Shown: positions 21,001 to 22,904 of the stretch, in pieces | Position numbering within the stretch: the first letter of the stretch is position 1 | How the letters are laid out: each line of letters starts with the position of its first letter | DNA from: Escherichia coli | GTDB taxonomy: Bacteria; Pseudomonadota; Gammaproteobacteria; Enterobacterales; Enterobacteriaceae | NCBI RefSeq assembly: GCF_048403405.1 | Contig: NZ_CP183129.1 | Direction: 5' to 3' (one strand) | Length of the DNA stretch: 64,000 nt | Made by a program: the position numbers

Positions 21001-22904
21001 ATCCGGGACCATCGCTGATCATCGCTTATAGCCCGTGTGAAGAGCATGGTTACGATCTGGCACTCAGTCACGACCAGATGCGCCAACTCACTGCCACCGG
21101 CTTCTGGCCGCTATATCGCTTCGATCCACGTCGAGCCGATGAAGGCAAACTGCCGCTGGCGCTGGATTCACGCCCGCCGTCAGAAGCACTGGAAGAAACG
21201 TTACTTCACGAGCAGCGTTTCCGTCGTCTGAATTCGCAGCAGCCAGAAGTGGCAGAACAGTTATGGAAAGATGCTGCAGCTGATTTGCAAAAACGCTATG
21301 ACTTCCTGGCACAAATGGCCGGAAAAGCGGAAAAAAGCAACACCGATTAAATGCACTGGATAAGGATTATCCAATTCTAAAAAAAAGCCCGGACGACTGT
21401 TCGGGCTTGTCTCATTATTTGTTGGATAAACAGTAACAAGGGTCCAACAGAAAATAATCTTTGTGACAATAAAGGCATATAACCCGCGAAGAATAACGCA
21501 TCACTATTTAAATGTATAATTTTTATTTTGTATATGTCGCCAATAATATATTCACCAAACTTATCATCATTTCCGTAGAATTATTTGATTAAGGTTTTAC
21601 TTAAGGCGTAACAAATGATATTTATCGGCTAACGGAACTTCTCCTTTAGGATGTTTTCACTCCCCAAAATGGGGATGAAAAGGCAAATAAAATAACTAAA
21701 GGATTTATTCAATGAAAAGCAAAGTACTGGCATTTTTAATTCCTACCCTGCTCGCCGCAGGTGCTGCACATGCAGCCGAAGTTTATAATAAAGACGGCAA
21801 CAAATTAGATCTGTATGGCAAAGTTGATGGACTACATTATTTTTCTGATAATTCAGCGAAAGATGGCGACCAGAGCTATGCGCGTCTGGGTTTTAAAGGC
21901 GAAACCCAAATTAACGATCAACTTACTGGCTACGGTCAATGGGAATACAATATTCAGGCAAACAACACTGAATCCTCAAAAAACCAGTCATGGACCCGTC
22001 TGGCATTTGCCGGACTGAAATTTGCAGATTACGGTTCTTTCGATTACGGACGTAATTATGGCGTAATGTACGACATCGAAGGCTGGACCGATATGCTGCC
22101 TGAATTTGGCGGTGACTCTTATACCAATGCAGACAACTTTATGACTGGTCGTGCCAATGGCGTCGCGACTTATCGTAATACTGATTTCTTCGGTCTGGTA
22201 AATGGTCTGAACTTCGCGGTGCAGTATCAAGGTAACAACGAAGGTGCCAGTAATGGTCAGGAAGGCACCAACAACGGACGTGATGTTCGCCATGAAAACG
22301 GTGACGGCTGGGGTCTTTCCACAACATATGATTTAGGCATGGGCTTTAGCGCTGGTGCGGCATACACCTCTTCTGACCGCACCAATGACCAGGTTAACCA
22401 TACTGCGGCGGGTGGTGATAAAGCAGACGCGTGGACTGCTGGGCTAAAATACGATGCTAACAATATTTACCTGGCAACCATGTATTCAGAAACGCGTAAT
22501 ATGACCCCGTTTGGCGACAGCGATTATGCTGTTGCTAACAAAACCCAGAACTTTGAAGTTACTGCACAGTACCAGTTTGATTTTGGTCTGCGTCCGGCAG
22601 TCTCTTTCCTGATGTCTAAAGGCCGTGACCTGCACGCTGCCGGTGGTGCAGACAACCCGGCAGGTGTTGATGATAAAGATCTGGTTAAATACGCCGATGT
22701 TGGCGCGACTTACTATTTCAACAAAAATATGTCCACCTACGTTGACTATAAAATCAACCTGTTGGATGAAGATGACAGCTTCTACGCTGCCAACGGCATC
22801 TCTACCGATGATATTGTCGCTTTAGGTCTGGTTTATCAGTTCTAAATCCTCCTGCCCGCTGTTATGGCGGGCTTTTTCTGCTTATTCTTCCTCCTTTGAT
22901 CTAA

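What the first reader, a model, noticed from the sequence alone, without database searches (positions are those of the whole stretch)
21379..21483. MicC convergent with ydbK on a shared terminator; central region worth comparing
The MicC 5' seed and terminator are as I recall them, but the central portion looked somewhat different from my memory of the K-12 sequence. This could be real strain or species variation or imperfect recollection.
Basis: partly seen in the sequence, partly recalled or inferred. Interest (0 to 1): 0.2.

Follow-up and report, generated by a model that had tools for sequence, protein, structure and literature searches.

The report
Divergent natural allele of micC sRNA
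This is the well-known porin-regulating small RNA gene micC of E. coli. It is a minority natural allele: the target-binding 5' end and the terminator match K-12, but the middle and the promoter region sit in a short, sharply bounded, unusually diverged block. That is ordinary biology with a small population-genetic twist.

Summary
Window 21379-21483 (- strand) is micC (Rfam RF00121, 105.7 bits, gathering score 90). It converges on nifJ/ydbK and lies divergent from ompN. Nucleotides 1-22 and the terminator are identical to K-12. The central 49 nt carries 12 substitutions and a 5-nt deletion in the hairpin loop, so the difference is real and not faulty memory.

The differences belong to a ~165-bp block (21413-21577) that also covers the micC promoter region. 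The block is ~23% diverged from K-12, against ~2% for the surrounding 22 kb. The allele is in 484 of 5426 complete E. coli genomes, including ST69 and ST38 strains. It is nearly invariant (0-2 differences) on varied flanking backgrounds. It is as far from the common allele as other Escherichia species are, which points to a recombination import or an old haplotype. No donor was found.

The functional parts are kept: seed, 6-bp central stem, terminator, and the inferred -10 and conserved upstream promoter motifs. The ompC target site is ≥99% identical in 5342 of 5370 genomes. It most likely works as ordinary MicC.

The "shared terminator" is only partly supported. The hairpin is perfect in the nifJ sense, but its T-rich tail, present in K-12, is degraded here. 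Interest is low.

The parts
21379..21483 (-). micC gene (105-nt Hfq-type sRNA), minority 'B' allele
   Evidence: Rfam RF00121 at 105.7 bits, gathering score 90. Ends read from the sequence. Aligned to K-12.
21462..21483 (-). 5' seed, nt 1-22 (GUUAUAUGCCUUUAUUGUCACA), which pairs with the ompC leader
   Evidence: Identical to K-12. The 61-nt ompC leader/start region, which contains AAUAAAGGCAUAUAAC complementary to MicC nt 1-16, is ≥99% identical in 5342 of 5370 E. coli genomes.
21413..21461 (-). Variable central part of MicC: linker, central hairpin (stem UGUUGGA/UCCAACA, shortened loop) and the A/U-rich stretch before the terminator
   Evidence: 12 substitutions and a 5-nt loop deletion against K-12. 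The stem is kept. The helix is paired in 86.7% of cells across 27 species or alleles, with C-G to U-A exchange at its base.
21385..21408 (.). Terminator hairpin flanked by A8 (21379-21386). It gives the U8 tail for micC and is a possible bidirectional terminator for nifJ.
   Evidence: Rfam structure line. The + strand folds as a 10-bp stem with one G·U. The hairpin is identical to K-12. The + strand tail is degraded relative to K-12.
21484..21577 (-). micC promoter/upstream region. Inferred -10 TATTCT at 21490-21495 and the conserved ATAAAAATTATAC motif at 21514-21526 are kept; the spacer and the -45 to -95 region are diverged.
   Evidence: Differences listed. Conservation of TATTCT and ATAAAAATTATAC across Escherichia, Salmonella and Citrobacter. 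The promoter assignment is inference from position relative to +1.
21413..21577 (.). The diverged haplotype block: 39 differing columns of about 170 against K-12
17826..21350 (+). nifJ/ydbK (pyruvate:flavodoxin oxidoreductase), convergent with micC
   Evidence: ORF list. RefSeq annotation of matching genomes.
21712..22845 (+). ompN (quiescent porin), divergent from micC and sharing the intergenic control region
   Evidence: ORF list. RefSeq annotation. Co-regulation reported in PMC5745476.

Best explanation
This is a functional micC gene. It encodes the Hfq-dependent trans-acting sRNA whose 5' 22 nt pair with the ompC mRNA leader near the ribosome-binding site and block translation. The gene here is a minority E. 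coli haplotype ('allele B').

A block of about 165 bp, covering the RNA's central hairpin loop and linkers plus the promoter spacer and upstream region, has been replaced by sequence of between-species depth. The most likely cause is short-tract homologous recombination from an unsampled, divergent Escherichia-like lineage, followed by spread among E. coli backgrounds.

Shown here:
- the family identity and the synteny;
- the conserved seed, central stem and terminator;
- the sharp bounds of the block;
- its frequency and its depth of divergence.

Inferred:
- that it is expressed and represses ompC as in K-12;
- that the block was imported rather than maintained in place;
- the promoter hexamer assignment.

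The confidence of 0.85 is for 'a functional micC ortholog carrying a real, recurrent natural allele'. For the import origin specifically I would say about 0.6.
For: Family and synteny: RF00121 at 105.7 bits, above the gathering score of 90, between nifJ and ompN.

Functional modules:
- Seed nt 1-22 and the terminator hairpin are identical to K-12.
- The central 6-bp stem is kept and extended by an A-U pair.
- That helix is 86.7% paired over 27 sequences, with compensatory C-G/U-A exchange.
- The ompC leader target is ≥99% identical in 5342 of 5370 genomes.
- The -10-like TATTCT and the ATAAAAATTATAC motif are invariant across genera.

The block:
- There are 46 differences in the 500-bp bin against 1-17 in the other bins.
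- The differences are confined to 21413-21577.

Population:
- The distribution is bimodal: 449 genomes at ≥99% and 4907 at 80-90%, with only 56 in between.
- 484 of 5426 genomes carry the allele.
- Carriers include ST69 strain 118UI and ST38 strains MRSN346647, 28Eco12 and 266917_2.

Import rather than local drift:
- In the block, B differs from A at 33-39 of 171 columns. Other Escherichia species differ from A at 31-39.
- In the adjacent 202 flank columns, B differs from A at 2-6, while other species differ at 20-29.
- B carriers differ from the window at 35-60 of 2535 positions in nifJ but at only 0-2 of 170 in the block.
- Strain 2022N21 is a mosaic with a breakpoint inside micC.
Against: - No donor was found. 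None of 30 species representatives and none of 13 metagenome contigs carries the block in a non-E. coli context.
- E. albertii and E. fergusonii were not recovered by the exact-seed scan, so they are untested.
- The Rfam score is 14-19 bits lower than that of every other Escherichia micC tested (119-125 bits). This is the most atypical copy.
- Single-sequence MFE folds differ between the alleles, and neither cleanly reproduces the family structure.
- Expression, Hfq binding and ompC repression by this allele were not, and cannot be, tested here.
- ompC of this very strain is outside the window.
Confidence: 0.85

Rival explanations
1. Allele B is a functionally distinct variant kept by selection. 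Its changed promoter spacer and upstream region would alter H-NS silencing or stress induction of micC. Its shorter loop and changed linker (nt 23-26, next to the seed) would alter stability, Hfq handling or the target range. The two haplotypes would then persist as a regulatory polymorphism.
For: - Two discrete haplotypes with almost no intermediates.
- Allele B is nearly invariant on varied backgrounds.
- The block covers exactly the region reported to be H-NS- and stress-controlled (PMC5745476).
- The -35-like hexamer reads TATACA in B and TATACT in A.
- MicC levels are reported to differ between clinical lineages (PMC7177473).
Against: - All changes fall in positions that also vary freely between species: loop, linker and spacer. 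Neutral hitch-hiking explains them equally well.
- There are no expression or phenotype data for this allele.
- PMC7177473 found no promoter differences behind the expression differences it saw.
Confidence: 0.2
2. The block diverged in place. Relaxed constraint or local hypermutation, or incipient decay of micC in some lineages, would produce it without any import.
For: - The central region of MicC is the fastest-evolving part in every genus sampled.
- The intergenic block evolves about 1.7 times faster than its flanks between species.
- The window copy has the lowest Rfam score of the set.
Against: - The ratio of block to flank divergence is about 10 for B against A, but about 1.7 between species.
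- Carriers with 1.4-2.4% diverged nifJ flanks share an almost identical block. That is the opposite of ongoing local hypermutation.
- Seed, stem, terminator and core promoter motifs are all intact.
Confidence: 0.08
3. There is no real difference; the reader misremembered the K-12 sequence.
For: None after testing.
Against: Direct alignment to K-12 TG1 shows 12 substitutions, a 5-nt deletion and a 1-nt T-run difference within micC. K-12-type genomes match the 222-bp query at only 83.7%.
Confidence: 0

Closest known systems
MicC sRNA of E. coli K-12 (Rfam RF00121; Chen, Zhang, Blyn & Storz 2004, from my own knowledge; summarised in PMC5745476)
   Same: - The same locus, between nifJ/ydbK and ompN.
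- The same orientation and the same +1.
- An identical 22-nt seed.
- The same 6-bp central stem.
- An identical terminator hairpin and a U-tail.
   Different: - 105 nt, against 110 nt (including its nine-T run) for the K-12 TG1 copy aligned here.
- 12 substitutions and a 5-nt deletion in nt 23-71.
- Rfam score of 105.7 bits against 125.
- Promoter spacer and upstream region about 25% diverged.
Switched or mosaic intergenic regions in E. coli ('horizontal regulatory switching', Oren et al. 2014; 'switched IGRs', Thorpe et al. 2018 Piggy). Recalled from my own knowledge, not checked in the library.
   Same: Conserved flanking genes with two discrete, deeply diverged versions of the sequence between them, spread by recombination across lineages.
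   Different: The replaced tract is very short (~165 bp) and still alignable. It has one breakpoint inside an sRNA gene, so it exchanges part of the RNA body as well as its promoter.
Bidirectional intrinsic terminators between convergent genes (Ju et al. 2019, from my own knowledge)
   Same: A single GC-rich hairpin flanked by an A-tract on one side and T-rich sequence on the other, placed between convergent nifJ and micC.
   Different: In this allele the nifJ-sense tail is GTCTCATTAT, against GTCTTTTTAT in K-12. It fails the consensus scan that K-12 passes. No 3'-end mapping data were consulted.

Membership tests
MicC (Rfam RF00121) | Covariance-model score at or above the curated gathering score (90 bits), full-length match | tested here: met
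   105.7 bits, model positions 1-123 of 123, E = 1.7e-15. This is lower than K-12 (125) and other Escherichia species (119-121).
MicC (Rfam RF00121) | Conserved 5' end complementary to the ompC mRNA leader | tested here: met
   Nt 1-22 are identical to K-12. The ompC leader 61-mer containing the complement of MicC nt 1-16 is ≥99% identical in 5342 of 5370 E. coli genomes. ompC of this strain is not in the window, and its sequence was not read directly.
MicC (Rfam RF00121) | Genomic position: between ydbK/nifJ and ompN, divergent from ompN | tested here: met
   nifJ 17826-21350 (+), micC 21379-21483 (-), ompN 21712-22845 (+).
MicC (Rfam RF00121) | Central stem-loop and Rho-independent terminator with a U-tail | tested here: met
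   The central helix is kept (6 bp plus an extra A-U), and the family-wide helix is 86.7% paired with a compensatory exchange. The terminator helix is 99.6% paired and identical to K-12, with a U8 tail. RNAalifold on its own recovered only the terminator.
MicC (Rfam RF00121) | Hfq binding, expression, and repression of OmpC synthesis | not testable with these tools
   Needs a Northern blot or RNA-seq, Hfq co-immunoprecipitation and an ompC reporter in an allele-B strain.
Bidirectional intrinsic terminator shared by nifJ and micC | Hairpin that folds in both senses, with a U-tract following it in both senses | tested here: inconclusive
   The hairpin folds in both senses. The U8 tail is present for micC. 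The nifJ-sense tail has 4 T in the first 8 bases here, and no site is called. The K-12 tail passes the same scan. No transcript 3'-end data were consulted.

The most novel reading that the evidence does not exclude
The two micC haplotypes could be a selectively maintained regulatory polymorphism. A ~165-bp tract imported from another Escherichia lineage would rewire micC transcription and perhaps MicC stability or target range. This would affect phylogroup-D clinical lineages such as ST69 and ST38, and contribute to lineage differences in OmpC level and so in antibiotic permeability.
Probability: 0.12. Interest if true: 0.4.

Novelty: already known. Interest (0 to 1): 0.15.

Why it matters
MicC is a textbook porin-regulating sRNA, and finding it at its usual locus is routine.

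The useful by-product is a caution and a small lead. [quoted passage not shown] Yet about 9% of complete genomes carry a copy whose middle and promoter differ from K-12 by about a quarter of positions. The carriers include the clinically important ST69 and ST38 lineages.

Three practical consequences follow:
- Probes, primers, promoter fusions and synthetic-sRNA scaffolds designed on K-12 micC will not match these strains.
- Lineage differences in MicC and OmpC levels could partly trace to this haplotype.
- The locus is a clean example of a recombination breakpoint falling inside an sRNA gene while its functional modules are spared.

Tried and rejected
- **Consensus promoter/terminator scan of the window.** It found nothing on either strand. 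The micC-sense hairpin has an internal A·C mismatch and the nifJ-sense tail is T-poor. This is a limit of the rule and not evidence of absence. K-12 gives one + strand site.
- **RNAalifold on 27 MicC sequences.** It recovered only the invariant terminator. The central helix had to be tested explicitly. Two Citrobacter rows are shifted by one column in that alignment and count as unpaired.
- **Single-sequence MFE folds.** They differ between the alleles and neither cleanly reproduces the family structure (only the window allele's centroid shows the central stem), so they are uninformative here.
- **Donor search.** The exact-seed scan of species representatives returned 30 loci, none with allele B. 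The seed's invariance in that set is by construction. The metagenome scan with the B-specific 30-mer returned 13 contigs. All have E. coli flanks at 96.6-99.3% identity. The apparent outlier L055 (93.5%) is explained by a separate mosaic segment inside ompN.
- **Small ORFs in the intergenic region.** Only 26-37-aa frames turned up, with no supporting signal. Rejected as coding.
- **Literature searches.** They found no description of this micC dimorphism or of 3'-end mapping at this terminator. The absence holds only for the open-access library that was searched.
- **Phylogroup of carriers.** Sequence types for four carriers come from papers. The assignment of ST69 and ST38 to phylogroup D is from my own knowledge.

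Full report
**1. What is at the coordinates**

An Rfam scan of the whole window returns MicC (RF00121) at 21371-21486 on the - strand. The score is 105.7 bits against a gathering score of 90, E = 1.7e-15, and the match covers the full model. Reading the sequence, the transcript starts at 21483 (G of GTTATATG) and ends with an eight-T run at 21379.

The 1174-aa ORF at 17826-21350 (+) is nifJ/ydbK, and the 377-aa ORF at 21712-22845 (+) is ompN (RefSeq annotation of matching genomes). micC therefore converges on nifJ and lies divergent from ompN, as in K-12.

**2. Is the middle really different from K-12?**

Yes. Alignment with K-12 strain TG1 shows:
- 21462-21488 (seed nt 1-22 plus five upstream bases) is identical.
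- The terminator hairpin and its flanks (21385-21412) are identical. The only difference at the 3' end is a T-run one base shorter.
- The central 49 nt (21413-21461) has 12 substitutions and one 5-nt deletion inside the hairpin loop.

If 13 events fell uniformly over 105 nt, all landing in the central 49 nt has a probability of about 5e-5 (my arithmetic).

**3. The variation is part of a larger, sharply bounded block**

The window is collinear with K-12 over 1299-23645 at 98.07% identity. In 500-bp bins the differences number 1-17, except for bin 21300-21799, which has 46. At 25-bp resolution the excess lies in 21413-21577. This stretch is the central part of the RNA plus about 95 bp upstream of +1. 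The seed forms an island of identity in the middle.

That amounts to 39 differing columns of about 170 (~23%), against ~2% in the flanks. ompN and the 3' end of nifJ are at background divergence.

**4. Population picture**

- **Two classes.** A 222-bp query (21379-21600) against 5426 complete E. coli genomes gives 449 genomes at ≥99%, 48 at 95-99%, 8 at 90-95% and 4907 at 80-90%. All K-12 strains score 83.7%.
- **Frequency.** A stricter query finds the window-type allele, 'B', in 484 genomes, or 8.9%.
- **Carriers.** They include 118UI (ST69) and MRSN346647, 28Eco12 and 266917_2 (ST38). Both sequence types belong to phylogroup D, from my own knowledge.
- **Varied backgrounds.** Four allele-B carriers differ from the window at 35-60 of 2535 positions in the adjacent nifJ sequence. 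That is as much as allele-A strains do (30-64). In the block they differ at only 0-2 of 170.
- **ompN is not strictly linked.** Strain 98218 has allele B together with the OmpN protein of EC958.
- **Mosaics exist.** Strain 2022N21 has an A-type core but B-type states at 21413-21419 and in the ompN-proximal flank. Recombination breakpoints therefore fall inside micC.

**5. Depth and origin**

An exact-seed scan of one genome per species returned 30 loci from Escherichia clades, Salmonella, Citrobacter and relatives. The central region differs in every lineage, and none has allele B.

| Comparison | Block (171 columns) | Flanks (202 columns) |
|---|---|---|
| Allele B vs allele A | 33-39 differences | 2-6 differences |
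| Other Escherichia species vs allele A | 31-39 differences | 20-29 differences |

The block has between-species depth inside flanks of within-species depth. The ratio of block to flank divergence is about 10, against about 1.7 between species. This fits a short recombination import, or a very old haplotype, better than divergence in place.

The terminator loop (CAGTCGTCC) is the E. coli type in both alleles, so one boundary lies between the terminator and the central hairpin.

A metagenome scan with a B-specific 30-mer gave 13 contigs, all with E. coli flanks. The one apparent outlier is explained by a separate mosaic segment within ompN. No donor was identified. E. albertii and E. fergusonii were not recovered by the seed scan and remain untested.

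**6. Does it still look functional?**

Every module known to matter is kept:
- **Seed.** It is identical to K-12. The 61-nt ompC leader/start region, which contains the complement of MicC nt 1-16, is ≥99% identical in 5342 of 5370 genomes. Allele-B strains therefore must carry the target as well.
- **Central helix.** UGUUGG/CCAACA is retained and extended by one A-U pair. Across 27 sequences this helix is paired in 86.7% of cells, with C-G to U-A exchange at its base. It beats all slid controls: 94% of cells are paired overall, against at most 54%.
- **Terminator.** The helix is unchanged.
- **Promoter.** The -10-like TATTCT (21490-21495) and the ATAAAAATTATAC motif are invariant across genera, while the spacer varies. 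This promoter assignment is inferred from position only.

The copy nevertheless scores lowest of the Escherichia micC genes tested: 105.7 bits, against 125 for K-12, 122 for EC958 and 119-121 for other species. The main causes are the loop deletion and the linker changes.

The mechanism I commit to is ordinary MicC action. Hfq-assisted pairing of nt 1-22 with the ompC leader blocks 30S binding (summarised in PMC5745476). I put the probability that this allele does so at about 0.85.

The diverged promoter region is the part reported to be repressed by H-NS and induced by envelope-active antibiotics. A quantitative difference in expression is therefore possible but untested.

**7. The 'shared terminator'**

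The hairpin at 21385-21408 begins 35 nt after the nifJ stop codon. In the nifJ sense it folds as a perfect 10-bp stem, because the A·C mismatch of the micC sense becomes a G·U pair.

In K-12 the consensus scan calls a + strand terminator with the tail GTCTTTTTAT. In this window the tail is GTCTCATTAT, because of the TT-to-CA change at 21413-21414, and no site is called.

The shared-terminator reading is thus structurally reasonable for K-12 and weaker for this allele. It was not checked against 3'-end data in either case.

**8. Comparison with what is known, and verdict**

This is micC, an already known gene. All sequence-testable defining features are met.

The allele is a natural variant present in hundreds of sequenced genomes. 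I found no description of it in the searched literature, where MicC is treated as highly conserved within E. coli.

Conceptually it is a small instance of the mosaic or 'switched' intergenic regions known in E. coli (from my own knowledge). One breakpoint lies inside an sRNA gene, and the functional modules are spared.

Interest is low at 0.15. The most novel reading not excluded is a selectively maintained regulatory polymorphism affecting OmpC control in ST69- and ST38-type lineages. I give it a probability of about 0.12 and modest interest if true.

Noticed in passing
window 21357-21373 (+): Palindrome TGGATAA-GGA-TTATCCA between the nifJ stop (21350) and the micC 3' end (21379). The 7-bp arms are conserved in most Escherichia species representatives (E69 deviates), while the 3-nt centre varies. 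It folds as a small hairpin in the nifJ sense. Its function is unknown.
   Followed up: partly
window 21634-21640 (+): GGAACTT, a perfect match to the sigma-E -35 consensus as I recall it, lies upstream of ompN. K-12 has TGAACTT at this position. PMC5745476 states that the K-12 micC-ompN intergenic region has no sigma-E core motif.
   Followed up: no
window 22193-22693 (ompN); loci L055, L040, L042: ompN is itself mosaic. Metagenome contig L055 carries allele-B micC but has a segment about 30% diverged inside ompN. Strain M172-1 has a 1119-bp variant annotated 'ompC' at this locus. In O157:H7 strain YB14-1 ompN is frameshifted.
   Followed up: partly
hit H2, NZ_OY754371.1 (nifJ-ompN interval): One allele-B genome has an IS200C transposase gene under the match. 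The 421-bp query is split into two pieces spanning 1132 bp.
   Followed up: no
window 26873-26996 (-), 27009-27126 (-), 33992-34087 (+): Three further sRNA genes pass Rfam gathering scores: STnc490 (143.4 bits), FnrS (134.8 bits) and McaS/IsrA (112.8 bits).
   Followed up: no
window 23596-24531 and onward: Collinearity with K-12 ends at 23645. Here uspF is followed directly by an ORF at the position of ttcA, so the Rac prophage that K-12 carries at this position appears to be absent. Only 68 records reach ≥99% identity to window 12000-32000 at their best-matching place, and two match the whole 20 kb at 100%.
   Followed up: partly
RefSeq records matched by window 21379-21600: None of the listed RefSeq/PGAP records, K-12 strains included, annotates any feature under micC ('none'), although each of the five copies scanned with Rfam passes the gathering score.
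   Followed up: no
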